Source of the DNA: a virus
Lineage: Duplodnaviria > Heunggongvirae > Uroviricota > Caudoviricetes
Virus record (IMG/VR): IMGVR_UViG_2534681737_000011
Reading direction: 5' to 3' (one strand)
Length of the DNA: 35,827 bases
Below the pieces are notes generated by a model. The model had not been told where the DNA came from and did no database searches. It saw only the letters and a program-made list of their open reading frames with translations. Shown one piece after another: positions 1,686 to 17,589 of the stretch. Numbering within the stretch: position 1 is the stretch's first letter; every line of letters begins with the position of its first letter. Position numbers and translations under genes: made by a program.

Positions 1686-1715
1686 AAAGCCATCATATAA
1701 TTCTCAGTCAAAGTA

Positions 1716-1898
1716 TCAGTAAACCTCGGCGGTAATCTTTACTTTAATGTCATACTTCTTTAAGAGTTTGTGGAAGGTTGATTGATCAATACCTTCACCT
1801 TTAAACCATTCACCCATCACTACATCAGGCGTCAGTTCAAAATAACGCTTTGCCATTTCTAAAACGATTTCACGAGTGAACTTAACAGGTCGTGCCAT
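1716..1898 (-). CDS. small putative DNA-binding protein (paralog of 5190..5423)
   Basis: 60-aa ORF with AGGAGG ribosome-binding site (plus-strand CCTCCT at 1906-1911); shares the pattern RP-x-(K/R)FT-xE ... GI ... F-K ... KK-x-DIK with the 5190..5423 product. Confidence 0.55.
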   Translation of the reverse strand: MARPVKFTREIVLEMAKRYFELTPDVVMGEWFKGEGIDQSTFHKLLKKYDIKVKITAEVY

Positions 1899-2338
1899 CT
1901 TGAATCCTCCTAAATCTGGATTAATGATTTCTTAAAAAAGAGCGTTAACCGCTCACTATTATTTATATGGGGATTGTATTTTATTTTTCAACCCCTCACA
2001 TTTATCTCTTATATATGTATTTATCACAGAGATATGTTAAAATGTTATTCAGATGTTATCAGACGTGTTAAATGTGTTAAACCACAGCACGAATTGCTAA
2101 AGCGAAGAACACGAATTAACCAAATTGATGTTTATGCAATCAATTTAGAAAATTGCATAGCACTTTTTGCTAAAGCGGTGAGTATTAATTGAGCTATGAA
2201 TTGTAAAGATTTGTTACAGGATTTCTCTCAGATCCAAGTCTTAACAGACATATAACAATTTAACAGAAAGATAACAAACGGAAGGAAAATCGGTAAATTT
2301 TCACTTTCAATACAAATATTATACCACATTTTTCTCCA

Positions 2339-2410
2339 ATTGTCAAGTGTAGCACCGATCCTACACAGTGTCAACAAAGGATTTTCAAACCTACACTAGC
2401 CCTACACTAT
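2339..2410. repeat. TGTCAA-flanked hairpin (GTGTAG/CTACAC) plus three CCTACAC repeats
   Basis: TGTCAA GTGTAG caccgatc CTACAC agTGTCAA arrangement, then CCTACAC at about 2360, 2390 and 2401; read directly from sequence. Confidence 0.6.
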
Positions 2411-2413
2411 GAA

Positions 2414-2654
2414 AATTGCCCATGAATTTTGCCCCTGAACCAAAATCCCCTAGATTTCACTATCCCATTTTTGCCCCTGAAACCTACTATTTTTGCCCCT
2501 GAAATTCTGGGAAACAGTGATTTTGCCCCTCATTTTTGCCCCTGAAATGCCAATAATTGCCCCTGAAAATCTAATTTTTGCCCCTGAAATTTGCCCCCGA
2601 AAAGGATTGGTGAGAAAAACTCTTTATAAAACATTAACTTAGTGAGGGGCAAAA
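2414..2654. repeat. iteron array: 13-bp direct repeat TTTTGCCCCTGAA (5 exact, 4 degenerate, 1 inverted copy)
   Basis: Exact copies at 2427-2439, 2468-2480, 2491-2503, 2534-2546, 2576-2588; degenerate copies at 2415-2426, 2521-2532, 2555-2567, 2590-2601; inverted copy TGAGGGGCAAAA at 2643-2654. Spacing is irregular (about 10-40 bp), so not CRISPR-like. Confidence 0.85.
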
Positions 2655-2742
2655 CGGGGAATCGGGCGTGCATAGATATTATATAACACATTCGCTACGC
2701 TCATGTGTAAAACCAAAAACAACAAATAACCAAAAAGATATT

Positions 2743-2762
2743 AGGAGGGCGTAGCCCGACTG
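2743..2762. repeat. 20-bp element AGGAGGGCGTAGCCCGACTG (copy 1 of 2)
   Basis: Near-identical to 3176-3195 (2 mismatches, both in the loop of a GGGC/GCCC mini-hairpin). Confidence 0.7.
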
Positions 2763-2780
2763 CGCGAAGCGCTAACCAAT

Positions 2781-3030
2781 TACTTCTAGTAACACTAATT
2801 TAAACTAGATGATACTAGATGGTCTTAGAAGGAATTAACTAGTTTGCTCGCTCGCTTCGCTCACTCTCAAACGTCTGCGACGCCACTGCGTGGCATCGAG
2901 AATCACTTTTGAAAGGATTTTCTTAGAAAGGGATTTTAAACTAGTTACTAACTGATTCTAGAAAGATAGTAATAATCACTTTGAAGATAATAGTAGTTAA
3001 CTGGTTACTAGATGATTCTAGATCACTTTA
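2781..3030. repeat. CTAG-rich block of short direct repeats
   Basis: Eight CTAG tetramers within about 250 bp; about 25-bp imperfect direct repeat TTAAaCTaGTTACTAacTGATTCTAGA (2937-2965 vs 2997-3026); ATCACTTT(T)GAA at 2901, 2974, 3021; TCTTAGAA(A)GG at 2823 and 2921; GC-rich island at about 2845-2900. Confidence 0.7.
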
Positions 3031-3052
3031 ATGATCATGAAAGGTATTGGTT

Positions 3053-3081
3053 ATCCCTTCGGGATTGCAACCTTCGGTTGC
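3053..3081 (+). other. two tandem UUCG-tetraloop hairpins
   Basis: ATCCC-ttcg-GGAT immediately followed by GCAACC-ttcg-GGTTGC; no adjacent T-run, so not a classical terminator. Confidence 0.55.
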
Positions 3082-3175
3082 TAAATTTCTTCCTGATTAT
3101 TATTTCTTCAAAAGAAAGATTCTTATATTCTAAAGATACTTCTTCGTTTTGATGATGTTTTAATCAAATCTATGA

Positions 3176-3195
3176 AGGAGGGCTTTGCCCGACTG
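3176..3195. repeat. 20-bp element AGGAGGGCTTTGCCCGACTG (copy 2 of 2)
   Basis: Matches 2743-2762; the two copies bracket the CTAG-rich block. Confidence 0.7.
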
Positions 3196-3286
3196 AATAC
3201 CAATCCCTTCCAAAATCATCAAGAATTTTCTCTTATAAATAATATCAGAATTACTTTGATTCACTTTCTTTTAGAGGATTTCCATT

Positions 3287-3754
3287 ATGAACCATAAACT
3301 GACTACCACTACTCCTTTTATCCTTCTGGGTCTGGATGCAGATAGCTTTCACAATGACAAGTTAATGAAGATGTTCCGTGAACGTGGTTATAACATCCTT
3401 TACAATACCGATGAATCCCATTTCTCTAGTGCATGGTATGTTTTCGGAAGAAATAAACGTCCTACCATCGTTGTTAACTGCTTCACCGATGAAGACCGCC
3501 TGAAATACCAGAACATTCCAGCAATCATTGTTCGTGATGACCTGCCTTTCGAAGTCCGTGATTATGACATTGATTTAGGTAGCTTCGTTACTGTCTATGA
3601 ACTGGATGAAGCCATGTTTAACTACGGCAAAGAACCCGCTCAGGAAGCCCCAGAACACGATGAAGAAGATGAGGAAGACGAAGAATACGCGCCAATCTGT
3701 TTCTCTTCTCACGGTGGCTTCTACGGTTACGATGAAGGCTTAGATATGCTGTAA
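3287..3754 (+). CDS. strongly acidic hypothetical protein
   Basis: 155-aa ORF with GAGGA ribosome-binding site; Asp/Glu-rich throughout with a poly-acidic tract (EHDEEDEEDEE) near the C-terminus. Confidence 0.6.
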   Translation: MNHKLTTTTPFILLGLDADSFHNDKLMKMFRERGYNILYNTDESHFSSAWYVFGRNKRPTIVVNCFTDEDRLKYQNIPAIIVRDDLPFEVRDYDIDLGSFVTVYELDEAMFNYGKEPAQEAPEHDEEDEEDEEYAPICFSSHGGFYGYDEGLDML

Positions 3755-3789
3755 GTTAGGTCAACCCTTTGGCGTCTTGTCAAGGGGTA

Positions 3790-3818
3790 TTGACAAAATT
3801 TTCTGACTTTTTTATGAT
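3790..3818 (+). promoter_or_regulatory. sigma70-type promoter (-35 TTGACA, 17-bp spacer, -10 TATGAT) with operator-like TTGTCAA/TTGACAA palindrome
   Basis: TTGACA at 3790-3795, 17-nt spacer, TATGAT at 3813-3818; inverted repeat TTGTCAAggggtaTTGACAA overlaps the -35 and a third TTGACAA lies at 3827-3833; sits upstream of the 3875 gene. Confidence 0.6.
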
Positions 3819-3874
3819 TATCGCACTTGACAATTTTGAACCTATTTGACCTAGATTTGTAAAGAGGATGTAAC

Positions 3875-4207
3875 ATGAAAGAATTTACCATCACTAAATC
3901 CCTGTATGACTGGACTGTTAAAATCTCCGGCAAAACCGTTTCTGTAAGCCCTAGCCATGTAGAAAATGATTGGGGCGTATCCCGTGAAACAATCTCCCGT
4001 AGTATGCATGTTCCGTTTGATCTGATGTCCTTAACTGGTATTCATGCAATGCTGGAAGTTCGCGAACAATTCGAAGCTGGTAATCACAATGCGACTCCAG
4101 TTAGCAATCACCTTCTTACTAATGAAGAACGTGAAATCATCGAAAACTGGCGTTATGAATATGCGATTCCTTATTATGAAGAAGATCAGGTAGAAATCGA
4201 TTGGTAA
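3875..4207 (+). CDS. hypothetical protein
   Basis: 110-aa ORF with AGAGGA ribosome-binding site 6-7 nt upstream; double TAA stop. Confidence 0.6.
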   Translation: MKEFTITKSLYDWTVKISGKTVSVSPSHVENDWGVSRETISRSMHVPFDLMSLTGIHAMLEVREQFEAGNHNATPVSNHLLTNEEREIIENWRYEYAIPYYEEDQVEIDW

Positions 4208-4296
4208 TAAATTTCTATTATAAATAAAATTGTTCCGGTGGTGATGCCGGAACTAGGAGGACCAAATCATTAAACCGTTTAAGGGGAATTAATACT

Positions 4297-5109
4297 ATGA
4301 ATACTGTTACCGTTATGAATACTGCTAAAACTGCTTCCATGTCTCTGGTTGTTGATAACACCAAACCGCTGACCATGTCTTCCCGTCAGATCGCTGAATT
4401 TACCGGAAAAGAACATAAGCATGTTAAACGTGATATTAAAACTATGCTTACTTCTCTTGAATTAGATGAGTCCAAATTTGGACGCATCTTTTTTGACCAA
4501 TATGGACGTGAACAAACCGAATATCACCTTGACGAAGAACTTACGCTGACTCTTGTTACTGGTTACGATGTTAAGCGTCGAATGATTGTTATTCAGGAAT
4601 GGAAACGACTGAAAGAAGAAAATGAAAAACTGCGTCAGGAACGTTTAGCTGCTAACCCGTATGCAGACTTTGAAGAAACCGATTGGATCGAACTGGCATT
4701 AAAGAAAACTCGCGAAAATAAAAAGCTGATTGAACTTCATTATCGCAAATCCGTAGATAGCCATTCAATGACCCGTCTGTTAGGCGCTAAAAAGGGCGCT
4801 ACGAAGGTTAAAGAAGCACTGACGGCCTTGCGTACTGCTGGCTACATTGAGCGCGTCTACGATGAAAATAACAAGCCGTGTGGGTATGTTGCTAATGACT
4901 CTTCTCTGTCTTTCTGCCGCATGAATGCTCACTACCAACTTGAGTTTACTGTTGATGTGCTTCCGGTGCTGGTTGAATTGGGTGTTCTGGAAGAAGAACA
5001 AAAAGCAACTCTGAATCTTCCTAAGCCGAACAACACTATTCTGATTCAAAATAAAGCGGCTGAACGTCTCCGCCAGAATGTTGGATCACTGGAAGTCTTC
5101 GGACTGTAA
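4297..5109 (+). CDS. Rha-family phage regulatory protein (N-terminal Rha-like DNA-binding domain)
   Basis: N-terminal segment SSRQIAEFTGKEHKHVKRDI ... YGREQTEYHLDEELTLTLVTGY matches the Rha domain pattern as recalled from memory; ribosome-binding site AAGGGGAAT upstream. Confidence 0.65.
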   Translation: MNTVTVMNTAKTASMSLVVDNTKPLTMSSRQIAEFTGKEHKHVKRDIKTMLTSLELDESKFGRIFFDQYGREQTEYHLDEELTLTLVTGYDVKRRMIVIQEWKRLKEENEKLRQERLAANPYADFEETDWIELALKKTRENKKLIELHYRKSVDSHSMTRLLGAKKGATKVKEALTALRTAGYIERVYDENNKPCGYVANDSSLSFCRMNAHYQLEFTVDVLPVLVELGVLEEEQKATLNLPKPNNTILIQNKAAERLRQNVGSLEVFGL

Positions 5110-5117
5110 TAATTTTT

Positions 5118-5143
5118 AGCCTCGCCTAGTGCGGGGCTTTTTC
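5118..5143 (+). terminator. rho-independent terminator after the Rha-like gene
   Basis: AGCCtCGC-ctagt-GCGGgGCT hairpin followed by TTTTT. Confidence 0.6.
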
Positions 5144-5157
5144 ATGCCTACAGATAC

Positions 5158-5181
5158 AAAAAAGCCACTCCGAAGAGTGGC
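5158..5181 (-). terminator. rho-independent terminator for the minus-strand 5190..5423 gene
   Basis: GCCACTC-cgaa-GAGTGGC hairpin preceded on the plus strand by AAAAAA, which is a U-run on the minus strand. Confidence 0.55.
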
Positions 5182-5189
5182 AAAGAGAA

Positions 5190-5423
5190 TCAAAAACCTG
5201 TTGCTTCTACGATCTGACCATCACCGATCTGAACATAGAATTTAATGTCTAACTTCTTCATATTCTTATAGAATTGGGCGATTGAGATCCCATGTTCACT
5301 AAGAATCTGTTCTTTCGATTCCTTACCGCGATCCGCTGTATAGTAAGCGTAGGCAATATCAGCCATCTGTTCTTGAGTGAATCGGCAAGGGCGACCGCGA
5401 GTAGCTTTAGTAGTCATAGTCAT
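5190..5423 (-). CDS. small putative DNA-binding protein (GRP motif plus helix-turn-helix-like segment)
   Basis: N-terminal TRGRPCRFTQEQ followed by an HTH-like ILSEHGISIAQFYKNMKK; paralogous to 1716..1898. Start may be the second ATG at 5417, which has better GGAGA spacing. Confidence 0.55.
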   Translation of the reverse strand: MTMTTKATRGRPCRFTQEQMADIAYAYYTADRGKESKEQILSEHGISIAQFYKNMKKLDIKFYVQIGDGQIVEATGF

Positions 5424-5451
5424 TTCTCCAAATTAAAGTGAATGTTCACCT

Positions 5452-6054
5452 TTATTTAGAGGACTTACATTTTATAGGAAAAAGTTCTCCATCGTCAACC
5501 GACATAAAGAACTCTGCTTTGATCCCGTACTGCCTCAAGCGTGAATAGTATGTACCTCGACTTATATCAACCTTGCGAAGCACTTCAAAGAACCCTTTAG
5601 GATCGTTGTAATAGTGGCTATATCGCACGTTAGCGAGTTCAACGAATAGTTCCCTTGTATCACCATATCCTTTCTTAAAAGCCTCGTTACGATAGCGTGT
5701 AACAGCGTGATTTAGCCTTTCATGCTTAAACACTTCCCTTAGTGGCTTCCATTGCAACCGATAGATCGGACCATCGTCGATTCTGTAAAACCGCTTAATG
5801 TCAAAATCAAACCAATCTCGGACTCTCCGAAACTCTGTATGTGATGTTCTATGCTTCTTAAAGAAGTTGTGAACGTCTGTATAACCATTATCACGGTAAA
5901 ATTCTATTAAAATCTCTTTCGCTTCCTCACGGCTAAAACCAGAAGTGGTTATATCTGTTTTTAAATGCTTATGCTTAACTGGTAAACGATATTCATGATC
6001 GGTACAAGACAAGGCTAATTCTAATTCATCTCTTTGTTGCTGATTAATTAGCAT
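5452..6054 (-). CDS. hypothetical protein with C-terminal HTH-like motif (ISRGTYYSRLRQYG)
   Basis: 200-aa ORF with AGGAGG ribosome-binding site (plus-strand CCTCCT at 6059-6064); the C-terminal motif resembles resolvase or homing-endonuclease type HTH; no catalytic motif recognised. Confidence 0.5.
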   Translation of the reverse strand: MLINQQQRDELELALSCTDHEYRLPVKHKHLKTDITTSGFSREEAKEILIEFYRDNGYTDVHNFFKKHRTSHTEFRRVRDWFDFDIKRFYRIDDGPIYRLQWKPLREVFKHERLNHAVTRYRNEAFKKGYGDTRELFVELANVRYSHYYNDPKGFFEVLRKVDISRGTYYSRLRQYGIKAEFFMSVDDGELFPIKCKSSK

Positions 6055-6141
6055 ACAACCTCCTTAAATCTTAATACCCGTATTTATTAAAAAATCAACA
6101 ATTTACTAAATACTCTCATATTTCGTAATGAGGGTAATTAC

Positions 6142-8049
6142 ATGAAACTGATTTCTAATAAGGCAAAATTAAAAAAGATTCTCAGAAATGCAGCCAAATA
6201 TATTACGCCACCTCCTAAACTCCTTCCGTCTGAATGGTGCGAAGCGAATATGGTGCTGGTAGATGGTCCTCAAGCGGGGGATAAAGTTAAATTGTTGTCA
6301 TTCCAAAAAGGCATGATTGATGCACCTTTCCTTGAGAACAAGAAAAAGTATGTCCTGATGACCAGTGCGCAGATCGGAAAAACTACCATCTTGAACGGCA
6401 TCCTGTTTAACCAGATGGCTAACGATCCATGCAATATGATTATCGGACAATCAACCGCTAAAGAAATGTCTCAATATCTCGCGGGTAAGATCCGACCGTC
6501 TATCGAAGCATGTGATGCATTAAAAGACGTGGTTACAGACAAGAATGATCGTAATGCGGTTAACAACAATAACCAACTCCAGCTAAAAACGAATCACTTC
6601 CTGTACATGGTATCGCTTACCAGTCCATCAACCCTACGTGGTAAGACCGCAAAGGTTGGATTGCTTGACGAAATCGATGCTGCTACAGCCTCAGAAGAAG
6701 GTGATCCGGTGGCACTGGCTGCTAACCGTTTAACTACTTTTGGAGATGAGGGTCGATTAGTCGTATCCAGTACCCCGACCAGTAAGCTGGGAAGCATTAA
6801 CCAGCAATGGTTATCAAGCGATATGCGTATGTTTTTTGTTCCGTGTCCTCATTGCGGTAGACACCAGGTGATCGAGTGGGAAAACGTTCAATTTGAATGG
6901 CGTAACATCGATGGTAAGAACTTACCCGATCCTGATACCGCTCGTTATATTTGCCCTCACTGTAAGCAATCATGGACAGAAGGGGAACGAATCAGGGCAG
7001 TAGCGCAAGGCGAGTGGAGAGCAACCCGTGAAAGTGAAGTAGCAGGATTCTGGATCAGTCGTCTATATTCACCTTTCAGCACGATCCGCGCTTGTGTGGT
7101 TGATTTTAGTCATGCGTGGCAATCCTTTGATTTACAATCATTTTATAACACCGTATTAGGTAAGGTGTACGACGATCAGGACACGGCAGTAGAAGCAAAT
7201 GAACTGGAACAACTCAAAACAGATGTTTCTATCGAGAATATCCCAGATGACGTGATTTTCTTGTGCTCAGGAATTGACCAACAATTAGACCGCGCAGAAT
7301 CTACCATCTTAGGCGTAGCGAAAGATAAGGTTTACATTCTGGATCACCGCAGCTTTTACGATCATAACTGTGAACGATATGAATCACCTGTTTGGGATCG
7401 TCTGGTTAACTTCAAGAAAACCAAATTCTATAACGTTAATGGTGAACGTGTGCCAATGCTCGCCAGTTTCCTTGATACATCGAACGGTCGATTCACTCAA
7501 GCCGGATACCGTATTTGCGGCAAGTGGAAGAACCTACACGCGATCAAAGGTAGTTCGTCTGGTAATGCTCCAGTGATTCCGGTTAAACCTACCCGCACAG
7601 GTGGTCATGAATTGCTTATGCTGGGTGTTAACGTTGGGAAATCCGCTGTTCGTGAAATGTTGGTTAGAAACCTGAAAGACAATCCTCACATCGGCTTAGA
7701 AATATCAGAAACCGTTCCTGATGATTATCTCGATCAGCTTTTGAGTGAATCCATCAAGCGTACTACTACTGGCGTGCGTTGGGTGAAAAATCCAGGTAGT
7801 ACCCGAAACGAGGCTCTCGACTGTCTGGTTTATAGCTATGCTGCTTCTCGCTACGTTCTTTCAAAAATGTCATGGGATAAACTCATTGCAATGAAAGACA
7901 GCTTAAACCGTGTTGTCGAAGAATCCGTAGAAGCTCCTAAAACGCAATCTGACGAGCAAATCGAAGAAACTAAGCCAATCACACGACCACAACGTCAAAA
8001 CATCGCCAGACGCCCAAATAGAGGCCGTAGCTGGGTAACATCGTTCTAA
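6142..8049 (+). CDS. terminase large subunit, lambda GpA-like
   Basis: Walker A (SAQIGKTT) and Walker B (VGLLDEID) motifs; C-terminal region with CPHCG ... CPHC metal-binding motifs typical of GpA-type terminases; lies directly upstream of the portal gene. Confidence 0.85.
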
Positions 8050-8055
8050 TAACTC

Positions 8056-8074
8056 GCCGTCCTTCGGGGCGGCT
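8056..8074 (+). other. UUCG-loop hairpin after the terminase gene
   Basis: GCCGTCC-ttcg-GGGCGGC; only a weak U-tract follows, so termination is uncertain. Confidence 0.4.
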
Positions 8075-8121
8075 TACTCCTAAATATTGTTAATCCAATA
8101 ACAATTAAATAAGGGGTAATT

Positions 8122-8616
8122 ATGAGTTTAGAACTAATTCCCTTAGTAATTCGTAAAGGCGAAAAAGTCACGCTGGCGAATGAAGAGGGTGTAACAATTC
8201 AGGTAGGAAATAGTAAAGGTATCATTTATCAGGTTGATGATACTCCGGCTAATCATGAGATTAAAACTCTCTCGTTCGAGATAGGTAAATATACCATCGT
8301 AATAACTTTGGAAGAAGAACTGGTATCAATGCAGGAATTAACTGTATTGCCAGTCTTTGCCAAACAATCCAAAAAAGAATATCTGCGGGAAACTATCGCC
8401 TTAATCGAGCAAGTTATTTTCGCCCGTTTATCTGGGGACGAAGCCGCATTATCTGCAATGACAATAAAAGGGAACTCATTCGCCTATGAGTCATTGGGTG
8501 TTCTCCAGCAATTGAAGACTGATTATGAACGTCAGTTATCTAAATTAATTCAAGCCGAACGACGTAAGCAGGGAATTAGCCCGATTAAAAATATCAAATT
8601 ACGTCTTACGCGATAA
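8122..8616 (+). CDS. hypothetical protein between terminase and portal
   Basis: 164-aa ORF with AAGGGGTAAT ribosome-binding motif; function not recognisable. Confidence 0.55.
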   Translation: MSLELIPLVIRKGEKVTLANEEGVTIQVGNSKGIIYQVDDTPANHEIKTLSFEIGKYTIVITLEEELVSMQELTVLPVFAKQSKKEYLRETIALIEQVIFARLSGDEAALSAMTIKGNSFAYESLGVLQQLKTDYERQLSKLIQAERRKQGISPIKNIKLRLTR

Positions 8617-8626
8617 GGGGTAAATC

Positions 8627-10138
8627 ATGTTTAATCTTTTTCGACGCAATAAGGCGGTAGAAACTCCAGTTAAAACTAATCACCGCCAGCAACAACCAAA
8701 AATTTTCATCGATAAGCAAGTAGAAAAATTCCAGAAAGACCTATCTAAACGAAGTTTAGGTCTGGTTGGTGATCGCATTGATGGATCGCTTCAACAAGAC
8801 ACCATTACCGGAACCTTCAATAAGGCTCTCAAATCGAACGGTAAGCGCCTTTATGATCAGGGTCGTACTCTGGCTATAAACAATGCTGTAGGCAAGCGAT
8901 ACAAGCAGTATATCGTTGACCAAGTTGTTGGTACGGGGCTTGATCCGAAACCATCAATCGTTAAATCAAATGGCAAACTTGACACCGCACTGAATAAGCA
9001 GATCGAGAATGCTTTCTGGAAGTGGGCGCAGAGTGCTAAACGCTTCTCTCGCAACGGTCGCTTTAACTTCCGTGAAATGCTGGCAATGGCAGAATCTGAA
9101 CGTGTTCAGGGTGGAGAATGCTTCATCGTTTTAACCAAAGAGAACAATGAGTTACAAGTTTCTATTCTGTCTGCTGATAGGTGCGACTGGTCGCTTAGTC
9201 GTGAAATAAGCAAAGAACGTGCGATCTATCAGGGGATTGAGTATGACGTAGACACAATGCGCCCTGTAGCATACTGGTTTAGAAAAATCAATCTACTGAC
9301 TCAGACCTACACTGGCGAAAATTATCGCGTAGATGCTTCTCAGGTGTGCCACTACTACCAGCCACTGTGCGCGGAAAGTTTACGTGGTGTGACTGACTTC
9401 CTGCCAGTGATTAAGGATATTGCGCATCAAGAAGCGTTCCGCGAAACCGCGATCGTCCAGAAACGTATTGCAGCTAGCTCTATGGGCTTTATTGAACGTC
9501 CGAAAGATTCTGGTGACGATTTTGATACTGGTGAAGAGGATGAACAATATCAAGCGCCGGAAGTAGTACAGGACTTTGCACCGGGTACTATTCAGGAATT
9601 GCCGGAAGGGGCAACGATCAAGAGCATCCAGGCGACGCAAAGCGGTGATGATTTCAATTCCTTCAATGATGCGATGTTTACTAGCGTATCAATGGGCTTA
9701 GGCGTGTTCAAACAGGGCTTAACAGGAGATTGTTCACAGATCAACTACTCAGCCGCACGTTTTGGGGAACTAACCCAGCGTAACCGCATTAAAGCACTGC
9801 AAAACAAATTGATTGAAACAGTGGTATTGCCAATTTTTGAAGCATATCTACGCCATTATTCCGCGCGTGGTATTGTTCCGATTCGTATTACTGCAATTCC
9901 GCATATTATCGATAATACAACTATTATTCGTCCGCGTTTTGAATCCGTCGATCCTATTAAAGACGTAAACGCCGAGATTGCTTTAATTCAAAATGGTCTT
10001 AAATCACGTACTGCCGTTATATTGGAACGTGGTGATGATCCTGAAAAAGTATTCTCAGAGATTCAAGCCGAAAAGAGCGCACTAAATATTATCGTTAATG
10101 GCGAGGGTGAAGAAAAAAATTCCCCAGCCGATCCCTAA
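8627..10138 (+). CDS. portal protein (lambda-like)
   Basis: 503-aa ORF immediately after the terminase region and before the protease-capsid gene; size and position fit a portal; acidic C-terminal tail. Call rests mainly on synteny. Confidence 0.7.
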   Translation: MFNLFRRNKAVETPVKTNHRQQQPKIFIDKQVEKFQKDLSKRSLGLVGDRIDGSLQQDTITGTFNKALKSNGKRLYDQGRTLAINNAVGKRYKQYIVDQVVGTGLDPKPSIVKSNGKLDTALNKQIENAFWKWAQSAKRFSRNGRFNFREMLAMAESERVQGGECFIVLTKENNELQVSILSADRCDWSLSREISKERAIYQGIEYDVDTMRPVAYWFRKINLLTQTYTGENYRVDASQVCHYYQPLCAESLRGVTDFLPVIKDIAHQEAFRETAIVQKRIAASSMGFIERPKDSGDDFDTGEEDEQYQAPEVVQDFAPGTIQELPEGATIKSIQATQSGDDFNSFNDAMFTSVSMGLGVFKQGLTGDCSQINYSAARFGELTQRNRIKALQNKLIETVVLPIFEAYLRHYSARGIVPIRITAIPHIIDNTTIIRPRFESVDPIKDVNAEIALIQNGLKSRTAVILERGDDPEKVFSEIQAEKSALNIIVNGEGEEKNSPADP

Positions 10139-10183
10139 TAACCAACGGGGGCGCAATGCCCCCAATTAATTAAAGGTGATTAA

Positions 10184-12190
10184 ATGCTTAAATTTCGCCG
10201 CGATCTTAACGGTTACGGTGGAGTTATTAACGAAGGGCATAACGATCAATACGAATTTGAAATTGCTTTCTCCAGTGAACAGCCGTATCAGCGCCAATTC
10301 TGGGATGAGCAAAATCAAGAGATGGTGGTACTAGATGAAATTCTGGTACATACACCGGAAGCGGTTGATCTGTCTCGTCTGAATAATAACGCTCCGTTGC
10401 TGTTCAATCATAATTTCGATAATCACATTGGTGTCGTTTGTAACGCTCGAATCGATGCGGATAACGTAGGCCGTGCTCTGGTTAAATTCTCTAAGCATGG
10501 CACTTTGGCTAATGATATTCGCAATAAAGTCATTGAAGGTACGATGGAAAAAATTTCTGTCGGTTATGACATTAAAGAATATCACATCGACTACACCAAA
10601 GGACAATTGATTGTTACTAAGTGGGCACCCTATGAACTCTCATTTGTCACCGTTCCCGCAGACGATACGGTCGGTTTAAATCGCTCTCTAAATACTATCA
10701 CAGTTAATTTGGAGGCTAAACGCGATATGACTAAAGAACAAATCGAAGAAATCAAAGAAGAACAAGAAGCCGCTCAGGTTGAAGAAACTCCGGTAGAAGA
10801 AAATAAAGAATCGGAAGTTGAAGAAACTCAAGAGCGCCAAGTTGAAGAGAATAAAGAAAATGAAAATCTCGAAGACGGAAAAGACGCTGAACATCCTGAA
10901 AGTGTTGATGATGATAGTTCAACTGTTCGGGAAGAAGAAGAAGTAAAAGAAGAACGTGAAGCCGCTCCGGTTGAAGAAGAAAAAATTGAAGTGGCTGAAC
11001 GTTCCGAAGAAGACGAATTAGAAATTCGCGAAATTGCACGCGAACTAAATATTAACGAAGACGATGAAGAATTTAAACGCGCATTGACAAATAAAGAAAT
11101 TACGCCGGAAGCATTCCGCACTAAGGCACTAAATAATCTCGTCAATGCTCAACGTAATAACGAACAAATTAATAAGGAACAAATCATGGAAAAAACTTTC
11201 GATCTTAATAACGTAATCCGCTCCCTGGTAGATGGCGACGTGCTCGGCGCTAACGAAGCTGAATATTCCGCTATGGCTGCTACTGCAACTATGCAGCGTG
11301 GTCGTGCTGCTCGTGGTGGCTCTGTATTCGTTCCGGCTGCTGCTATGCGTGCTGCTGCTGCTGGTAACACCAAAGCTGACCTGACTGCTATCACCGACGA
11401 AAAACTGCTGACTGAATCCTACATCGAAATGCTGATGCCGGAATCCGTTCTGGGTCGTCTGGGTGTGACTGTTTACAGTGGCTTGACTGCTCCGACCGCT
11501 ATTCCAAAAATGACTAAATCCAGCGTTGACGCTTTCGGCTTCGTTGATGAAAACGGTGCTGCACCGGAAGGCAAAGCTGAATTTGCAAACGTGAAACTGT
11601 CTCCTAAGACTTTTGCTGGTGGCAACCCGATCAGCCGTCAGAGCATTAAAACCGTTCCGGGTATCGCTACCCTGATCACTGATCACATCAACCAGGCTGT
11701 TCGCATCAAACTGGAACAACTGATTCTGTCTGACAAAGACAATGAGCGCGGTCCTGCTGGTCTGGTTAAACAACTGGTTGATGCAAGCCGTGTTACTAAG
11801 AAAGCCGCTTTCAGCTACAAAGACTTCCTGAAAGAAATTGCAGCACTGACCGACGCTGGCGTTCCTGCTCAGGCGATCAAGTTTGCGATGAGCGGTGCAA
11901 CTGCTGCTGAACTGGAATCTACCCTGAAAGATAACGGTGTTTCCGGTTATATCATCGAAAACGGCAAACTGGCTGGTTACGATGTAGTTACTTCTGGTGT
12001 TATCCCGGCAGATCACATCGTTCTGGGTGACTTCTCCGGTATTACTATCGGTGAGTGGGGCGGTCTGGAACTGGATATGGACGACACCACCTACCGTGCA
12101 CAGTCCGCTATCGTTCCGCGTATCTGGGTAGATCTGGACTATGTTGTAACCCAGCCGGAAGCTCTGAAAGTTCTTCACATCTCCGAATGA
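10184..12190 (+). CDS. fused prohead protease / acidic scaffold-like linker / HK97-fold major capsid protein
   Basis: N-terminal about 170 aa match the HK97-type prohead protease pattern (LLFNHNFDNHIG ... SVGYDI ... ELSFVTVPADD); Glu-rich low-complexity segment at about 10730-11070; C-terminal about 330 aa capsid-like. Ends in TGA-A. Confidence 0.75.
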   Translation: MLKFRRDLNGYGGVINEGHNDQYEFEIAFSSEQPYQRQFWDEQNQEMVVLDEILVHTPEAVDLSRLNNNAPLLFNHNFDNHIGVVCNARIDADNVGRALVKFSKHGTLANDIRNKVIEGTMEKISVGYDIKEYHIDYTKGQLIVTKWAPYELSFVTVPADDTVGLNRSLNTITVNLEAKRDMTKEQIEEIKEEQEAAQVEETPVEENKESEVEETQERQVEENKENENLEDGKDAEHPESVDDDSSTVREEEEVKEEREAAPVEEEKIEVAERSEEDELEIREIARELNINEDDEEFKRALTNKEITPEAFRTKALNNLVNAQRNNEQINKEQIMEKTFDLNNVIRSLVDGDVLGANEAEYSAMAATATMQRGRAARGGSVFVPAAAMRAAAAGNTKADLTAITDEKLLTESYIEMLMPESVLGRLGVTVYSGLTAPTAIPKMTKSSVDAFGFVDENGAAPEGKAEFANVKLSPKTFAGGNPISRQSIKTVPGIATLITDHINQAVRIKLEQLILSDKDNERGPAGLVKQLVDASRVTKKAAFSYKDFLKEIAALTDAGVPAQAIKFAMSGATAAELESTLKDNGVSGYIIENGKLAGYDVVTSGVIPADHIVLGDFSGITIGEWGGLELDMDDTTYRAQSAIVPRIWVDLDYVVTQPEALKVLHISE

Positions 12191-12325
12191 ACTAGCGTAG
12201 AACCTTCTGTACCTTCCCCCGATTTGGGGGAAGAAAATCTGATTCCATCTCAGGAAGAAGAATCCCAGACGGTTACGGCGAAAGCCACAGCTAAAAAGGT
12301 GGGACGTCCACCGAAAGCAAAATAA
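12191..12325 (+). other. stop-free in-frame extension after the capsid TGA (44 codons, ends ...TVTAKATAKKVGRPPKAK)
   Basis: Translated directly: TSVEPSVPSPDLGEENLIPSQEEESQTVTAKATAKKVGRPPKAK then TAA; same frame as the capsid gene; contains the 24-nt block at 12272-12295 that is identical to 18186-18209. Confidence 0.5.
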
Positions 12326-12330
12326 TAATT

Positions 12331-12357
12331 AGCCCTGCCTAACGGTGGGGCTTTTTT
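12331..12357 (+). terminator. rho-independent terminator after the capsid gene and its extension
   Basis: AGCCCTGCC-taac-GGTGGGGCT (two G-U wobble pairs) followed by TTTTTT; near-identical to the terminator at 18239-18267. Confidence 0.7.
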
Positions 12358-12387
12358 GTATGTAAATACTCCATAAAGGGGGTAACT

Positions 12388-12678
12388 ATGTTCAAATTAT
12401 CAGAATCACAATTATCAAGAATGTTTAAGAGTGCTCCTGTATTTGTGGTGGAAGGTGGTAAATCAATTCGTGCTTATCATGAAATTACTACTACCGACGA
12501 ATCAGGTGTAATGACAGAAACCGAATTTCTATTCTGTCGTGAGGGAGACTTAAAGCAAGGTGATATTGTCACAGTAGAAAACCAGCGTTTCAAAGTTCAA
12601 TACGTTAAGCGCAATGGTGACAATACTTGTGATTGCTTTATCACTTTAGCAGGGGGTACACATGCTCGCTACCGTTAA
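12388..12678 (+). CDS. small virion or head-tail joining protein candidate
   Basis: 96-aa ORF with AAGGGGGTAACT ribosome-binding motif, immediately downstream of the capsid gene; function inferred from position only. Confidence 0.5.
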   Translation: MFKLSESQLSRMFKSAPVFVVEGGKSIRAYHEITTTDESGVMTETEFLFCREGDLKQGDIVTVENQRFKVQYVKRNGDNTCDCFITLAGGTHARYR

Positions 12679-13084
12679 TAATATGCCGAGACTGAAAATC
12701 AAACGCGCCTTGCAAGATATTATCGAACAAGATTTAGGTCTGGCTTTAAACGTAGAACAAACTCAGCAAGGCTTTAGTGATGACGTGGTTTGTTGGATCA
12801 CCGGAATGAATGAGACTTACACTAGGGTCCGTGGTGGTAATGCAATGCAAGCTGAATGCGTTATCGAAATGCAATTATATTCTCAGATTCATGAAACCAA
12901 AATTCATGAGGGTATTTGCCAGATAATCCAGATTCAGCCGGATAACCCACGTTTTAAAGATTTGGGCTTCTCTATTTCAGATATCACTCCAGTAGCCTCT
13001 AATACCGATTATGACGCTGATTCTAGTGATGGGGGTATCGTTGGGACACTTAGTCTTAAATTTTCTTATCTAGCGCGTTTTTAA
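12662..13084 (+). CDS. small virion or head-tail joining protein candidate
   Basis: 140-aa ORF overlapping the previous gene by 17 nt with a GGGGGT ribosome-binding site; position suggests a connector or completion protein. Confidence 0.5.
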   Translation: MLATVNNMPRLKIKRALQDIIEQDLGLALNVEQTQQGFSDDVVCWITGMNETYTRVRGGNAMQAECVIEMQLYSQIHETKIHEGICQIIQIQPDNPRFKDLGFSISDITPVASNTDYDADSSDGGIVGTLSLKFSYLARF

Positions 13085-14001: not shown

Positions 14002-17000
14002 ATGGAGTCTATCCAATTTAAACGCACACAGACGGCTGGTAAAAAGCCAACGCCAGAACAACTGGCACAGGGTGAGGTAGCAATTAACCTTGCCGACCAC
14101 GTAATTTACACCAAAGACAAAAATAACGCAGTAGTTCAAATCAGCGTTTCCCCAGAAAGTCATAATGCTTTAAACACGAAAGTAGACAATAACAAGAAAA
14201 CTACTGATTCTACTATCGCGGCAAATAAAACCGAAGCTGCTAACGCTCTGGCTACCGCTAAATCTGAACTGAATAACACTATTAACACGAAAGATACAGC
14301 GACCAATAAGCGCATTGATGCTACTAACACCACTGTTAGTAACTTAACCCAGACAGTCACGGCAAATAAAACCGACGCTGACACCAAGATCAATAACCTT
14401 ACGGGGACAGTTGCGGCAAACAAATCAGCTATTGAAACTACCGTAGCGAATAACAAACGAGACGCGGACAATAAAATCTCAGCTTTAACCACTACGGTTA
14501 ATGACAACAACACCGCGATCAATAGCCGTGTTGATACCACTAACACCAATGTTAGCAATCTGACCAAAACCGTTACAGCTAACAAGTCTGATGCTGATTC
14601 CAAGATCTCCAGCTTAACGAGTACCGTTGCAGCTAACAAATCAGCCATTGAAACTACGGTAGCGAACAATAAACGCGATGCTGATACGAAGATCACCAAC
14701 TTAACCAACACTGTTAATAGCAACCATACCGCCATTAACAACAAGGTTGACCAGAATAAAACCAGCACAGATGCAGCGATTGCAGCCGCTAACAAGCGAA
14801 TTGATGGTATTGAAGGTAGCAACGATGCTCTTTACATCAAGAAGAACACAAATACCTATCATCACGGCTATCTGTTAACCAAAACAGCTAACTATTTTGA
14901 TGATGCTGGTGCTCGTAACCTTGATTATTTTGGTGCGTTTCGTCCGAACAATGCCGAAGGTTGGGGTAACTTAATCCTTAACATTCCTCATTCTGGCGGT
15001 AAAGCACACGGTCGCGGCTTTGAGTTCCATTATGGGTCTAGCTCATCTCAGGTTAAAACCTATGGCTTTGATAAGGACGGTAACAAGAGATTCAGCTATC
15101 GCATGTACCATGAAGGTGATAAGCCGACTCCTGATGAATTGGGTGTGTATAGTAAAGCCGAAGTTGATCAGATGTTCATCAAGAACGTTAGAATGACCGT
15201 TCCTTCTGGTGATGCTACTCGTGGATACTTCAAGATCGCAACCGCTACGATCCCACAGAATGGTCGAATGGTAATGCTTCGTATCTTCGGTGGTAATGGT
15301 TATAACGTTAACTCTTATGATCAGGTTGACTTTGTAGAAATTGTCATCCGTTCCGGTAACAATAACCCGAAAGGCGTTAGTATTGCTGCTTATCGTCGAA
15401 ATGCTCTGAACGTTCATCAAGTATTTGCGGTTAATACTTCCGGTGATAACTACGATATCTACGTTAACTACGGTCGTTACACCGATAACGTTATTGTCGA
15501 ATACGGTAAAACTGATGGCGTTACTCTGACAGTACATGATGTTCCTGAATTAACTCTCGTTAAACCTTCTGTTGGTGTTACCGATGCTCGTGTTATTACG
15601 ATGTTCAACACCGAAAACAAAGCCGGAACGTTGATGTTTGATAATAACGGTCAAGGAACGTATGATATTATCAGTCTGAATAACTCAACTGATACAAATA
15701 AAAAATATCTTCGTAAATTCCGTAGCAAATCAGCCGAAACAATTTGGCATGAAGTTGTTGAAGGTAGTGTCTATCGTTTAGCTACTGGTGTTACTGATAC
15801 AGCGGATCAATTAAAAATTGATTTTAATGGTGTTACTGTAAACCGCCTTTTTGTTAAGGGTAATAACGCTATTAGAATGGAACGCCGCGACGGGCAAAGT
15901 AACTATATCGAATTCTTTGATTATCGTTCTGGTGCTAATCGTCGTCAGGGTTATCTAGGTTATGGTGATGGTACTACTAACACTGTACAGTTAGTAAATG
16001 AATTAACGGAAGGTAATAACTCTGTAAGACTGGATGAGAACGGTCAAGTTTCATTATCCACTGGCAAAACAAAAATTGTGTACACAAACGGCGAATATGT
16101 TGCTGCATACGCTAACGCATTCCGTATGATTTACGGTAACTACGGTGCATTCTGGCGTAATGATGGTGGTAAAGTTTATCTTCTTTCAACTGCCGAAAAT
16201 GATAAATTTGGTGGCTGGAACGGCAACCGACCATTCATTTACGATTTGACTACTGGTAAAGTTACTTTAGGTGGTGATGGTAACGAGGGTGCATTAGTTC
16301 TCGAACGAGATAGCCGTGCTGCTCGATTTGCTGGTGATATTTACGTCGGTAAAGGAATGTTAACCTTTGATGCTGGTCGATTAAATTCTCGCGACTACTT
16401 CCGGTTTAACCATTGGGGCGATAGCAATAACGCTCGTGATAATATCTTACAGCTTGACGATAGCAAAGGTGCACACTTCACCACTGAACGTACTTTAGCA
16501 ACTGGTGCGATTAAAACTAAATTCTTCGGTGATTTAGAAGCTGCTGGACAAATTCGCTGGGGTAAAGGTACTGCAACTTCTACGTTTAATATTCGTGCAT
16601 GGGGCGCTGATGCTCGTAAACAAGTGTTTGAATGTGCTGATGAAAGCGGTTGGCACTGGTATACCCAACGTGCTGGCGGTCCTGGTACTGAATTAATCGA
16701 GTTTGCTATTAACGGTACTGTTAAGCCTAAAGCAATCCACACTGGAGGCAATATCACCCTGAATGGTGCTGATATTGAGTTTAAGCGCACTGGTAACAAG
16801 CATTTATGGTTTAGAGATCCAAACGGCTTAGAGTTGGGTCTGTTGTACTGCGATGATGCTGGTGTTATGCGTATGCGCGGTGAGAAACAAGCCGAAGTCT
16901 GGAAATTCGGCGGTAAGATGATTCACCTTGAAACGGGCACTGTATCCGGTGGCGGTAATGGTCTTATTCGTGGTAGCGTTGCTGGTGGTAGTTGGGCTAG

Positions 17001-17589
17001 CTGGCGTGATCGTGCTTCCGGTATTCAGGTCGACTGCCAGCAATCAACCGATTCCGCTCATAACATCTGGAAAGCAACCCATCAAGGTAAATATCATATC
17101 GCCGCAATGGGTGTACACGTTCCTAGCGGTACTATCGGTAACGCTCTTGTTCGTCTCCATGTTCATGATGCCGTCTTTGACTTTAACGCATCCGGTGACA
17201 TGACGGCAGGTCGTAACGGTAGCTTTAACGATGTTTACATTCGCTCTGACTCTCGTCTGAAAATTAACAAGGAAGAATTACAGGACGGTGCATTAGAGAA
17301 AGTAAACTCCCTGAAAGTATACACCTACGATAAAGTTAAATCTCTTTCTGATGACACGGTAATTAAACGCGAAGTAGGTATTATTGCTCAGGATCTGGAA
17401 AAAGTATTGCCGGAAGCAGTAGGTATTCAATCTACCGAAGATCCAGAACATCCAGAAGCAATCAAGACTATTTCTAACTCTGCTGTCAATGCTTTAATCA
17501 TCAAGGCTATGCAGGAAATGGATGCTAAGTATCAAGCTAAGATTGATGCACTGACTAAAGAATTAGCCGAACTCAAAGCAACTAAATAA
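14002..17589 (+). CDS. long tail fibre protein with C-terminal S74-type intramolecular chaperone domain
   Basis: 1195-aa ORF with GAGGTGA ribosome-binding site; N-terminal repetitive T/N/K/A-rich region with two tandem units of about 72 aa; C-terminal SDSRLK motif followed by a coiled-coil tail, as in self-cleaving fibre and tailspike chaperone domains. Confidence 0.8.
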   Translation: MESIQFKRTQTAGKKPTPEQLAQGEVAINLADHVIYTKDKNNAVVQISVSPESHNALNTKVDNNKKTTDSTIAANKTEAANALATAKSELNNTINTKDTATNKRIDATNTTVSNLTQTVTANKTDADTKINNLTGTVAANKSAIETTVANNKRDADNKISALTTTVNDNNTAINSRVDTTNTNVSNLTKTVTANKSDADSKISSLTSTVAANKSAIETTVANNKRDADTKITNLTNTVNSNHTAINNKVDQNKTSTDAAIAAANKRIDGIEGSNDALYIKKNTNTYHHGYLLTKTANYFDDAGARNLDYFGAFRPNNAEGWGNLILNIPHSGGKAHGRGFEFHYGSSSSQVKTYGFDKDGNKRFSYRMYHEGDKPTPDELGVYSKAEVDQMFIKNVRMTVPSGDATRGYFKIATATIPQNGRMVMLRIFGGNGYNVNSYDQVDFVEIVIRSGNNNPKGVSIAAYRRNALNVHQVFAVNTSGDNYDIYVNYGRYTDNVIVEYGKTDGVTLTVHDVPELTLVKPSVGVTDARVITMFNTENKAGTLMFDNNGQGTYDIISLNNSTDTNKKYLRKFRSKSAETIWHEVVEGSVYRLATGVTDTADQLKIDFNGVTVNRLFVKGNNAIRMERRDGQSNYIEFFDYRSGANRRQGYLGYGDGTTNTVQLVNELTEGNNSVRLDENGQVSLSTGKTKIVYTNGEYVAAYANAFRMIYGNYGAFWRNDGGKVYLLSTAENDKFGGWNGNRPFIYDLTTGKVTLGGDGNEGALVLERDSRAARFAGDIYVGKGMLTFDAGRLNSRDYFRFNHWGDSNNARDNILQLDDSKGAHFTTERTLATGAIKTKFFGDLEAAGQIRWGKGTATSTFNIRAWGADARKQVFECADESGWHWYTQRAGGPGTELIEFAINGTVKPKAIHTGGNITLNGADIEFKRTGNKHLWFRDPNGLELGLLYCDDAGVMRMRGEKQAEVWKFGGKMIHLETGTVSGGGNGLIRGSVAGGSWASWRDRASGIQVDCQQSTDSAHNIWKATHQGKYHIAAMGVHVPSGTIGNALVRLHVHDAVFDFNASGDMTAGRNGSFNDVYIRSDSRLKINKEELQDGALEKVNSLKVYTYDKVKSLSDDTVIKREVGIIAQDLEKVLPEAVGIQSTEDPEHPEAIKTISNSAVNALIIKAMQEMDAKYQAKIDALTKELAELKATK
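14320..14750 (+). repeat. two tandem copies of an about 216-bp coding repeat inside the tail fibre gene
   Basis: Protein units IDATNTTVSNLTQTVTANKTDADTKINNLTGTVAANKSAIETTVANNKRDADNKISALTTTVNDNNTAINSRVD and TTNTNVSNLTKTVTANKSDADSKISSLTSTVAANKSAIETTVANNKRDADTKITNLTNTVNSNHTAINNKVD; also visible at nucleotide level. Confidence 0.75.

What the first reader, a model, noticed from the sequence alone, without database searches (positions are those of the whole stretch)
10184..12190. Single ORF fusing prohead protease, acidic scaffold-like linker and major capsid protein
The N-terminal protease-like domain, a roughly 110-residue Glu-rich low-complexity linker and the capsid domain are encoded as one 668-aa polypeptide. 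This implies autoproteolytic maturation of the capsid subunit, with the protease and scaffold delivered in cis.
Basis: partly seen in the sequence, partly recalled or inferred. Interest (0 to 1): 0.4.

Follow-up and report, generated by a model that had tools for sequence, protein, structure and literature searches.

The report
Fused protease–scaffold–capsid gene, probably nested
This E. coli prophage gene really does encode a head-maturation protease, a scaffold-like middle part and the capsid protein as one chain, an arrangement already known in many phages, but a conserved internal start site suggests it also makes a second, protease-free product.

Summary

The architecture is not new. At least 436 clusters (50% identity) match at E<=1e-30, and nearly all listed are fused-length. 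NCBIfam and PHROGs have named models for it. Gifsy-2 and several actinophage clusters are published precedents.

Processing is supported by a homolog. Roseophage R4C has a 629-aa fused gene, but its virion capsid structure (8gta) contains only the C-terminal 268 residues. That boundary maps to window res ~395-405, an AlphaFold low-confidence hinge, so the mature MCP should be ~28-29 kDa.

An in-frame ATG at 10727 (Met182), preceded by GGAGG, sits exactly at the protease/linker junction. Such junction ATG+SD sites occur in 64% of 42 non-redundant lineages versus 8.7% of control windows (p~6e-19). They lie in unusually open mRNA (p~4e-9). This predicts a nested 487-aa scaffold-capsid product. 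The better scaffold candidate is a helical domain (275-392), not the acidic stretch alone.

The parts
10173..10179 (+). Shine-Dalgarno (AAGGTGA) of the full-length start
   Evidence: Sequence read. Duplex energy with the anti-SD is -4.3 kcal/mol.
10184..12190 (+). 668-aa ORF (73.9 kDa): protease-scaffold-major capsid protein precursor
   Evidence: PHROG 617 matches res 21-664 at E 1.7e-91.
10244..10684 (+). Prohead serine protease domain (res 21-167). Catalytic candidates are His76 (10409) and Ser125 (10556); Glu52 and Glu151 are also invariant.
10711..10715 (+). Internal Shine-Dalgarno GGAGG, 11 nt upstream of ATG 10727
   Evidence: Duplex -9.3 kcal/mol. Conserved at nucleotide level in 12 alleles; the only change is GGAGG to GGGGG. 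Family-wide enrichment.
10727..10729 (+). Predicted internal in-frame start codon (Met182). Its product would be 487 aa / 53.2 kDa scaffold+capsid.
   Evidence: Met182 is invariant in the 120 close homologs. It lies in the AF2-disordered junction 168-182.
10709..11053 (+). Glu-rich acidic stretch (res 176-290). Mostly predicted disordered (pLDDT <50 at 199-270), with a short helix at 184-197.
   Evidence: Composition. AF2. Indels among close homologs concentrate here.
11006..11359 (+). Helical domain (res 275-392), a delta-domain-like scaffold candidate. It carries family-conserved motifs (E..R..EI...AI..G.S...F and SL..AIRA...GD).
   Evidence: AF2 helices 275-287, 295-302, 308-338, 341-350, 356-371 and 385-392 at pLDDT about 79-90. 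Consensus. No Pfam or PHROG hit on its own.
11366..11413 (+). Flexible hinge (res 395-410) holding the predicted maturation cleavage site
   Evidence: AF2 pLDDT <50. The first residue of the R4C virion chain (Gly362 of 629) aligns to window res about 395-405.
11414..12187 (+). HK97-fold major capsid domain (res 411-668). The predicted mature subunit is about 263-273 aa, 28-29 kDa.
   Evidence: Pfam PF05065. PDB 8gta by sequence, E 3.3e-24. Foldseek: 8gta 2e-17, also D3 and HK97. Masses.
12191..12328 (+). In-frame open extension of 44 codons after the TGA stop, ending in TAATAA. Possible low-level readthrough tail; unproven.
   Evidence: All 14 variants have TGA followed by A, open for 28/42/43/44 codons, but there is no purifying-selection signal.
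12331..12359 (+). Terminator-like hairpin plus T-run downstream of the gene
   Evidence: 9-bp stem with 6 GC pairs, then TTTTTTG. Conserved in variants.

Best explanation
The ORF is the head-shell precursor of a temperate E. coli phage whose head module runs gpA-type terminase, gpW-like protein, lambda-family portal, then this gene. The chain has five parts. First is an N-terminal S78 serine protease with the assemblin fold. Then come a disordered acidic stretch, a helical scaffold (delta-like) domain, a flexible hinge and an HK97-fold capsid domain.

I propose that the gene is read from two in-frame starts. ATG 10184 gives the 73.9-kDa protease-scaffold-capsid chain. ATG 10727 (Met182, behind GGAGG) gives a 53.2-kDa scaffold-capsid chain, the equivalent of HK97 gp5 with its delta domain. 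Both chains co-assemble through their capsid and scaffold parts into the procapsid. The protease is therefore carried inside, covalently tethered to a subset of subunits, at a dose set by the ratio of the two initiation rates.

Once the shell is closed, the protease cuts the internal parts, including a site near res 395-405. The fragments leave and a mature subunit of about 28-29 kDa remains.

Status of each step:
- Shown: the ORF, both domain families, the protease fold, the invariant His/Ser, the architecture of the middle part, the family-wide junction RBS+ATG signal, and the absence of the N-terminal 361 residues from a homolog's virion model.
- Inferred: actual use of the internal start and its ratio, the scaffold function of res 275-392, the exact cleavage site, and whether cleavage is in cis or in trans.
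For: Domains and fold:
- Searches give the family assignments, including NCBIfam NF045541 'prohead protease/major capsid protein fusion protein' (E 3e-38 on res 22-338).
- His76, Ser125, Glu52 and Glu151 are invariant.
- Foldseek matches HK97-fold capsids.

Processing:
- R4C gene 006 is a 629-aa fused ORF directly after the portal gene.
- The virion chain 8gta equals its residues 362-629 (PMC10276861: 415 copies, T=7).
- That boundary coincides with the AF2 hinge at 395-410.

Internal start:
- GGAGG then 11 nt then ATG at Met182, duplex -9.3 versus -4.3 kcal/mol for the annotated start.
- The same feature is present in all seven named fused homologs examined: DCP80, phiHAP-1, VP882, ECO1230-10, RcCronus and R4C, plus the window.
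- In 111 representatives the first Met after the protease motif peaks 15-35 residues downstream.
- ATG+SD (<= -5.5 kcal/mol) occurs in 27/42 non-redundant loci, versus 8.7% of same-size control windows and 4.8% of adjacent-linker windows (p 6e-19). At <= -7 the figures are 26% versus 0.2%.
- Local mRNA structure at junction ATGs has z +1.05, versus -0.12 for other in-frame ATG+SD sites (p 4e-9).
- Junction SDs are as strong as the best upstream-start candidates.
- In 12 E. coli-clade alleles with 45% variable codons, only 1 of 15 codons around the SD/ATG varies.
- Met182 is invariant in 120 close homologs.
Against: - There are no protein-level data for this prophage or for any internal-start product. 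All evidence for the second start is comparative.
- The SD-ATG spacing in the window (11 nt) is at the long end of what works well.
- A clade at 34-36% identity (L010-L014) has no possible start codon within 70 codons of the junction. The architecture can therefore work as a single product.
- 31 of 86 loci lack an ATG with a recognisable SD there, although many of these have an ATG without an SD.
- The 8gta sequence could have been trimmed by the depositors to the modelled residues, and the R4C paper does not mention a protease or cleavage.
- The middle region matches no scaffold family on its own.
Confidence: 0.6

Rival explanations
1. Single-product model. Only the 668-aa chain is made, every capsid subunit carries its own protease and scaffold (1:1), and the junction GGAGG-ATG is a fossil of the ancestral capsid-gene start left over from the gene fusion. 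It would contribute negligible translation.
For: The L010-L014 clade and several representatives (P0127, P0130, P0131, P0134) have no Met or alternative start near the junction, so an all-in-cis design is viable. The SD spacing of 11 nt is sub-optimal. HK97-type genomes have the protease gene immediately upstream of the capsid gene, so loss of a stop codon would naturally leave such a fossil (established knowledge). By my own estimate, not a tool result, about 415 copies of a 45-kDa internal part would still fit a T=7 procapsid.
Against: A neutral fossil should decay. Instead ATG+SD persists in 64% of lineages that share only about 25-45% identity and have unalignable linkers, versus 5-9% in controls. 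These sites also lie in specifically unstructured mRNA, unlike other in-frame ATG+SD sites. Synonymous sites around the site are frozen in the E. coli clade.
Confidence: 0.3
2. The N-terminal domain is a degenerate, inactive protease remnant that serves only as extra internal scaffold. Maturation cleavage would be absent or carried out by a host enzyme.
For: No enzymatic data exist. The NCBIfam equivalog TIGR01543 scores below its cut-off (37.2 versus 59 bits).
Against: His76 and Ser125 (plus Glu52 and Glu151) are invariant across 36 sequences at 24-42% identity. The fold is confidently that of assemblin/gp21. No other protease gene is present in the head module. The homolog's virion model lacks the N-terminal 361 residues.
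Confidence: 0.04
3. The fusion is an artefact (sequencing or assembly error, or a pseudogene) of two separate genes.
For: None found.
Against: The same uninterrupted ORF is present in 120 close homologs from independent assemblies, in 12 distinct alleles and in at least 436 clusters at 50% identity. It is also found in isolated phages.
Confidence: 0.01

Closest known systems
Salmonella phage Gifsy-2 'tripartite capsid gene' (Effantin et al. 2010, Virology 402:355). [quoted passage not shown]
   Same: One gene with an N-terminal protease, a central part of about 200 residues with a suspected scaffold role, and a C-terminal HK97-fold capsid protein. The phage has a lambda-type terminase/portal module and is a temperate enterobacterial phage.
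   Different: From my recollection of that paper's abstract, the Gifsy-2 protease is ClpP-like; I could not open the paper. Here the protease is S78 with the assemblin fold, and Pfam gave no ClpP hit. Gifsy-2 carries a gpD-like decoration protein, and none was recognised here. The two are therefore analogous, not homologous, in the protease part.
HK97 gp4 (S78 protease) plus gp5 (delta domain + capsid)
   Same: Same protease family and same capsid fold. An N-terminal scaffold-like domain of the capsid protein is removed by the protease. The predicted internal-start product (res 182-668) has the same layout as gp5.
   Different: In HK97 these are two separate genes, and the protease is recruited non-covalently through its C-terminal tail (established knowledge). 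The delta domain is about 102 aa, versus about 215 aa here (acidic IDR plus helical domain).
Cronusvirus phages: roseophage vB_DshS-R4C gene 006 and Rhodobacter phage RcCronus gene 7
   Same: True homologs (E 3e-24 on the capsid part). They share the fused layout directly after the portal gene and the junction GGAGG/AGAGGA-ATG. The R4C virion structure contains only the C-terminal 268 residues.
   Different: Only about 28% identity. Their linkers are Pro/Ala/Thr-rich rather than Glu-rich. The hosts are alphaproteobacteria.
Actinobacteriophage 'major capsid and protease fusion protein' / 'protease-scaffold-capsid fusion' (clusters AM, AU, AN, EE; PMC5513430, PMC7302621), NCBIfam NF045541 and PHROG 4523
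   Same: The same recognised architecture, with curated names for it.
   Different: Little or no sequence similarity is reported between those groups. The window protein scores 131.8 bits against NF045541, whose cut-off is 525, so it is not a member of that specific model.
Nested in-frame head-assembly genes: lambda C/Nu3, Mu I/Z, herpesvirus UL26/UL26.5
   Same: A long product carrying the protease and a shorter, more abundant in-frame product from an internal start. The two co-assemble, which sets the protease dose.
   Different: In those systems the shared C-terminal part is a scaffold only. Here it would be scaffold plus the capsid protein itself. Use of the internal start here is predicted, not shown.

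Membership tests
Peptidase S78 (HK97-type prohead serine protease, Pfam PF04586) | Match to the family HMM above the curated threshold | tested here: met
   PF04586 scores 41.7 bits against a cut-off of 21, on res 40-162. The narrower NCBIfam equivalog TIGR01543 scores 37.2 against 59, so that one is not met.
Peptidase S78 (HK97-type prohead serine protease, Pfam PF04586) | Conserved catalytic His and Ser | tested here: met
   His76 and Ser125 are invariant in 36 fused proteins and in 24 N-terminal domains, and in 120 close homologs.
Peptidase S78 (HK97-type prohead serine protease, Pfam PF04586) | Assemblin / prohead-protease fold | tested here: met
Peptidase S78 (HK97-type prohead serine protease, Pfam PF04586) | Proteolytic activity on the capsid precursor | not testable with these tools
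   Indirect only: the homolog's virion chain lacks the N-terminal 361 residues.
HK97-fold major capsid protein (Pfam PF05065) | HMM match above threshold and HK97 fold | tested here: met
   89.2 bits against a cut-off of 24.2. 8gta by sequence at E 3.3e-24. Foldseek: 8gta 2e-17 and HK97 1ohg 7e-11.
Protease-scaffold-capsid fusion genes (the Gifsy-2 'tripartite' kind; actinophage fusion proteins) | One ORF with an N-terminal protease, a central non-capsid part and a C-terminal capsid protein, with no separate protease or scaffold gene | tested here: met
Protease-scaffold-capsid fusion genes (the Gifsy-2 'tripartite' kind; actinophage fusion proteins) | Mature virion subunit consists of the C-terminal capsid part only | tested here: inconclusive
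   Met in the homolog R4C. Not tested for this prophage.
Gifsy-2 lineage specifically | ClpP-like protease domain | tested here: not met
   Pfam finds S78 only and no CLP_protease hit; the fold is assemblin-like. This gene works like Gifsy-2's but is not a member of that lineage.
NCBIfam NF045541 'prohead protease/major capsid protein fusion protein' | Score at or above the model's cut-off (525 bits) | tested here: not met
   131.8 bits, and only res 22-338 align.
Nested in-frame assembly genes (lambda C/Nu3 type) | Internal in-frame start codon with its own ribosome-binding site, conserved among relatives | tested here: met
Nested in-frame assembly genes (lambda C/Nu3 type) | Two protein products actually made | not testable with these tools
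   Needs proteomics or ribosome profiling.

The most novel reading that the evidence does not exclude
The 'fused' protease-capsid genes of this very large phage family are, in most lineages, nested genes. A conserved internal ribosome-binding site and ATG at the protease/linker junction would yield a protease-free scaffold-capsid protein as the main building block. The full-length chain would be a minority subunit that smuggles the protease into the shell. The ratio of two initiation sites would then set the protease dose, the same logic as herpesvirus UL26/UL26.5 and lambda C/Nu3 but applied to the capsid protein itself. I found no description of this in the searchable literature. The Gifsy-2 and HK97-protease papers could not be opened, so I cannot exclude that specialists have already noted it.
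Probability: 0.6. Interest if true: 0.45.

Novelty: new member of a known kind. Interest (0 to 1): 0.3.

Why it matters
The fusion itself is an ordinary, already catalogued solution for phages: it packs protease, scaffold and shell into one gene. What could matter is the family-wide junction start. If it is used, then current annotation as one 'major capsid protein' misses a second product. At least 436 sequence clusters at 50% identity match this protein at E<=1e-30, and nearly all those listed are fused-length. It would also give a simple, testable rule for how these phages dose their maturation protease, and a further parallel between tailed-phage and herpesvirus capsid assembly. In practice, it predicts the band pattern and the mature N-terminus to look for in any of these phages.

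Tried and rejected
- Megablast of the gene against the phage collection found nothing. Only protein-level relatives exist there, the best being DCP80 at 45%.
- A second internal start at Met335 (AAGGA, 7 nt, ATG 11186) is invariant in close homologs and lies in open mRNA. It is not positionally conserved in divergent homologs. I reject it as a family feature but cannot exclude it for this clade.
- The central region alone (res 182-400 or 275-400) matches no PHROG or Pfam family. 'Scaffold' therefore rests on position, predicted helices and conserved motifs.
- Literature searches for an internal start in protease-capsid fusions found nothing relevant.
- The Gifsy-2 paper (PMID 20427067), Duda et al. 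2013 and Veesler et al. 2014 are not held.
- The R4C paper contains no mention of protease or cleavage.
- A 29-mer scan of genome contigs found nothing. The metagenome scan gave 8 loci.
- The post-stop extension keeps its frame through three in-frame indels and always follows TGA-A. However, it shows 13 nonsynonymous versus 4 synonymous variable codons and no third-position bias. An open frame of that length has an 11% chance given the composition. I kept it as an aside only.
- The 349-aa antisense ORF 11129-12178 and other antisense ORFs inside the gene are treated as shadow ORFs of a strongly supported sense gene.

Full report
**Observation.** The window holds an ATG-initiated ORF at 10184-12190 on the + strand, encoding 668 aa. 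AAGGTGA lies just upstream of the start. The ORF sits in a typical head module:
- gpA-type large terminase (6142-8049)
- a gpW-like head-tail joining protein (8122-8616)
- a lambda-family portal (8627-10138)
- this gene
- connector and tail genes after it

No separate protease or scaffold gene is present. Pfam finds Peptidase_S78 (res 40-162) and Phage_capsid (res 411-665), both above their curated thresholds. Residues 176-290 are 36% Glu with net charge -33.

**Source and frequency.** The exact protein, and more than 100 variants at 95-100% identity, come from E. coli and Shigella assemblies. NCBI names it 'phage major capsid protein'. The module occurs in 55 of 5426 complete E. coli genomes, always on the chromosome. 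In strain GN4741 it lies in a prophage next to a truncated ycdX gene, and the prophage carries a serine recombinase.

**The architecture is already known.**
- A full scan of 1.84 billion representatives gives 436 clusters (50% identity) at E<=1e-30 and 3150 at E<=1e-10. Nearly all of the best 150 are 560-700 aa long, that is, fused.
- PHROG 617 covers the whole protein, and PHROG 4523 is named 'major head and protease protein'.
- NCBIfam has a model called 'prohead protease/major capsid protein fusion protein'. It matches the N-terminal half but scores below its cut-off.
- Isolated phages with the same layout include phiHAP-1, VP882, RcCronus, R4C, ECO1230-10, Arya, FoX1-5, PPpW-3 and S-CBS1/3.
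- Published descriptions exist for Arthrobacter clusters AM/AU/AN (PMC5513430) and for small-genome actinophages ('protease-scaffold-capsid fusion', PMC7302621).
[quoted passage not shown] 2010). I know that paper's content only from memory.

**Middle part.** The full-length AlphaFold model (mean pLDDT 77) divides the region between protease and capsid fold as follows.

| Residues | Prediction |
|---|---|
| 168-182 | disordered junction |
| 184-197 | short helix |
| 199-270 | disordered acidic stretch |
| 275-392 | confident helical domain (pLDDT about 79-90) with motifs conserved across the family |
| 395-410 | low-confidence hinge |

The helical domain has no family match of its own. By position and character it is the best counterpart of the HK97 delta domain. 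The acidic stretch looks more like a spacer or charge element.

**Processing.** The closest solved structure by sequence is 8gta, the virion capsid of roseophage R4C (E 3.3e-24). Its chain has 268 residues. The R4C gene for it (vBDshSR4C_006) directly follows the portal gene and encodes 629 aa. The chain equals residues 362-629 of that product. The virion model (T=7, 415 copies; PMC10276861) therefore lacks the protease and the whole middle part. The R4C boundary (…NTGTATA|GGVLVAQ…) aligns to window res about 395-405, which is the AlphaFold hinge. That predicts a mature subunit of 263-273 aa, 28-29 kDa. Two caveats apply. The depositors may have trimmed the sequence to what they modelled, and the paper says nothing about cleavage.

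**The internal start.** Scanning in-frame start codons for Shine-Dalgarno pairing revealed ATG 10727 (Met182). It is preceded by GGAGG, with a duplex energy of -9.3 kcal/mol against -4.3 for the annotated start. It lies exactly in the disordered junction after the protease domain. The evidence that this is a real feature comes from several tests.
- The same feature is present in every named fused homolog I examined, despite unalignable linkers: DCP80 M180, phiHAP-1 M152, VP882 M185, ECO1230-10 M216, RcCronus M190 and R4C M189.
- At the protein level, the first Met after the conserved E-x-S-x-V-x-x-P-A motif peaks 15-35 residues downstream in 111 representatives.
- At the DNA level, I used 86 fused loci, 80 of them from IMG/VR. 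An ATG with SD <= -5.5 kcal/mol occurs within +8 to +50 codons of the motif in 27 of 42 non-redundant loci. The rate is 8.7% in same-size control windows in the same ORFs and 4.8% in the adjacent linker (binomial p 6e-19). At <= -7 kcal/mol the figures are 26% versus 0.2%.
- Local mRNA folding energy around these ATGs is weaker than elsewhere in the same ORFs (mean z +1.25, p 3e-9).
- That is not a by-product of choosing purine-rich sites. Other in-frame ATG+SD sites have z -0.12, against +1.05 at the junction (p 4e-9).
- Junction SDs are as strong as the best candidate upstream-start SDs.
- Within the E. coli clade, 45% of codon columns vary among 12 alleles, but only 1 of the 15 codons around the SD/ATG varies (lowest 5% of sliding windows).
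- Met182 is invariant in 120 close homologs.

Against this, one clade (L010-L014) has no start codon of any kind within 70 codons of the junction, so a single-product design also exists. The window's SD-ATG spacing of 11 nt is also long.

**Mechanism proposed.** Two in-frame products are made: 73.9 kDa (protease-scaffold-capsid) and 53.2 kDa (scaffold-capsid). They co-assemble, so the protease enters the shell tethered to a subset of subunits. It then removes everything up to about res 400. This is HK97's gp4/gp5 logic with the recruitment step replaced by a covalent link. It also resembles the dosing logic of lambda C/Nu3 and herpesvirus UL26/UL26.5. Remaining alternatives are an inactive protease (0.04) or an artefact (0.01).

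**Verdict.** As an architecture this is a new member of a well-known kind and of low surprise. The conserved junction start is the only part that might be new, and it is directly testable.

Noticed in passing
window 12188-12328: The capsid gene ends in TGA followed by A, and the same frame stays open for 44 more codons (TSVEPSVPSPDLGEENLIPSQEEESQTVTAKATAKKVGRPPKAK) up to TAATAA. All 14 variants examined keep TGA-A and an open frame of 28, 42, 43 or 44 codons (three in-frame indels), while the other two frames carry stops. This could be a low-level readthrough tail on the capsid protein. However, variation is mostly nonsynonymous (13 versus 4 codon columns), and an open frame of that length has an 11% chance given the composition. 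The tail weakly resembles an AT-hook (E 0.088, below threshold).
   Followed up: partly
window 12213-12233: Perfect hairpin CTTCCCCC-GATTT-GGGGGAAG about 23 nt after the TGA stop, inside the open extension. It is absent from the short (28-codon) alleles.
   Followed up: no
window 10147-10163: GC-rich hairpin GGGGGCGCAATGCCCCC in the 45-nt gap between the portal stop and the capsid-gene start. The scan flags it as terminator-like only on the minus strand. It might be an mRNA-stability or processing element ahead of the most highly expressed gene.
   Followed up: no
window 11186-11188 (Met335): A second in-frame ATG preceded by AAGGA plus 7 nt, in open mRNA (z +1.17) and invariant in close homologs. 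It would give a 35.3-kDa product starting within the last helices of the central domain. It is not positionally conserved in divergent homologs.
   Followed up: partly
window 12331-12359: Terminator-like hairpin (9-bp stem, 6 GC pairs) plus a T-run right after the capsid gene and before the connector genes. It is conserved in the variants. A partial terminator after the capsid gene would raise capsid mRNA relative to downstream genes.
   Followed up: no
window 12849-12939 (-): ARAGORN calls a 91-nt 'tRNA-Gln(ttg)' antisense inside ORF 12662-13084. The unusual length and the position inside a coding gene suggest a false positive.
   Followed up: no
window 14002-17589: A 1195-aa tail-fibre-like ORF directly after the major tail protein. 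Its N-terminal third is a long run of degenerate repeats (…TVxANKxDADxKIxxLTxTV…). PGAP annotates the equivalent as 'tail fiber domain-containing protein'.
   Followed up: no
L001 (PQ671644.1, Escherichia phage DCP80, record 1-13000): The closest phage-database relative of this head module (45% identity) sits at the start of a 141-kb record classified as a T4-like Straboviridae (Gaprivervirus). A lambda-type terminase/portal plus fused-capsid module is unexpected there, so the record may be a chimeric assembly.
   Followed up: no
L010-L014 (IMG/VR loci): This clade of fused genes, at 34-36% identity to the window protein, has very acidic linkers and no ATG, GTG or TTG within 70 codons of the protease/linker junction. 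It appears to be a natural 'single-product' version of the architecture and would be useful as a comparison.
   Followed up: partly
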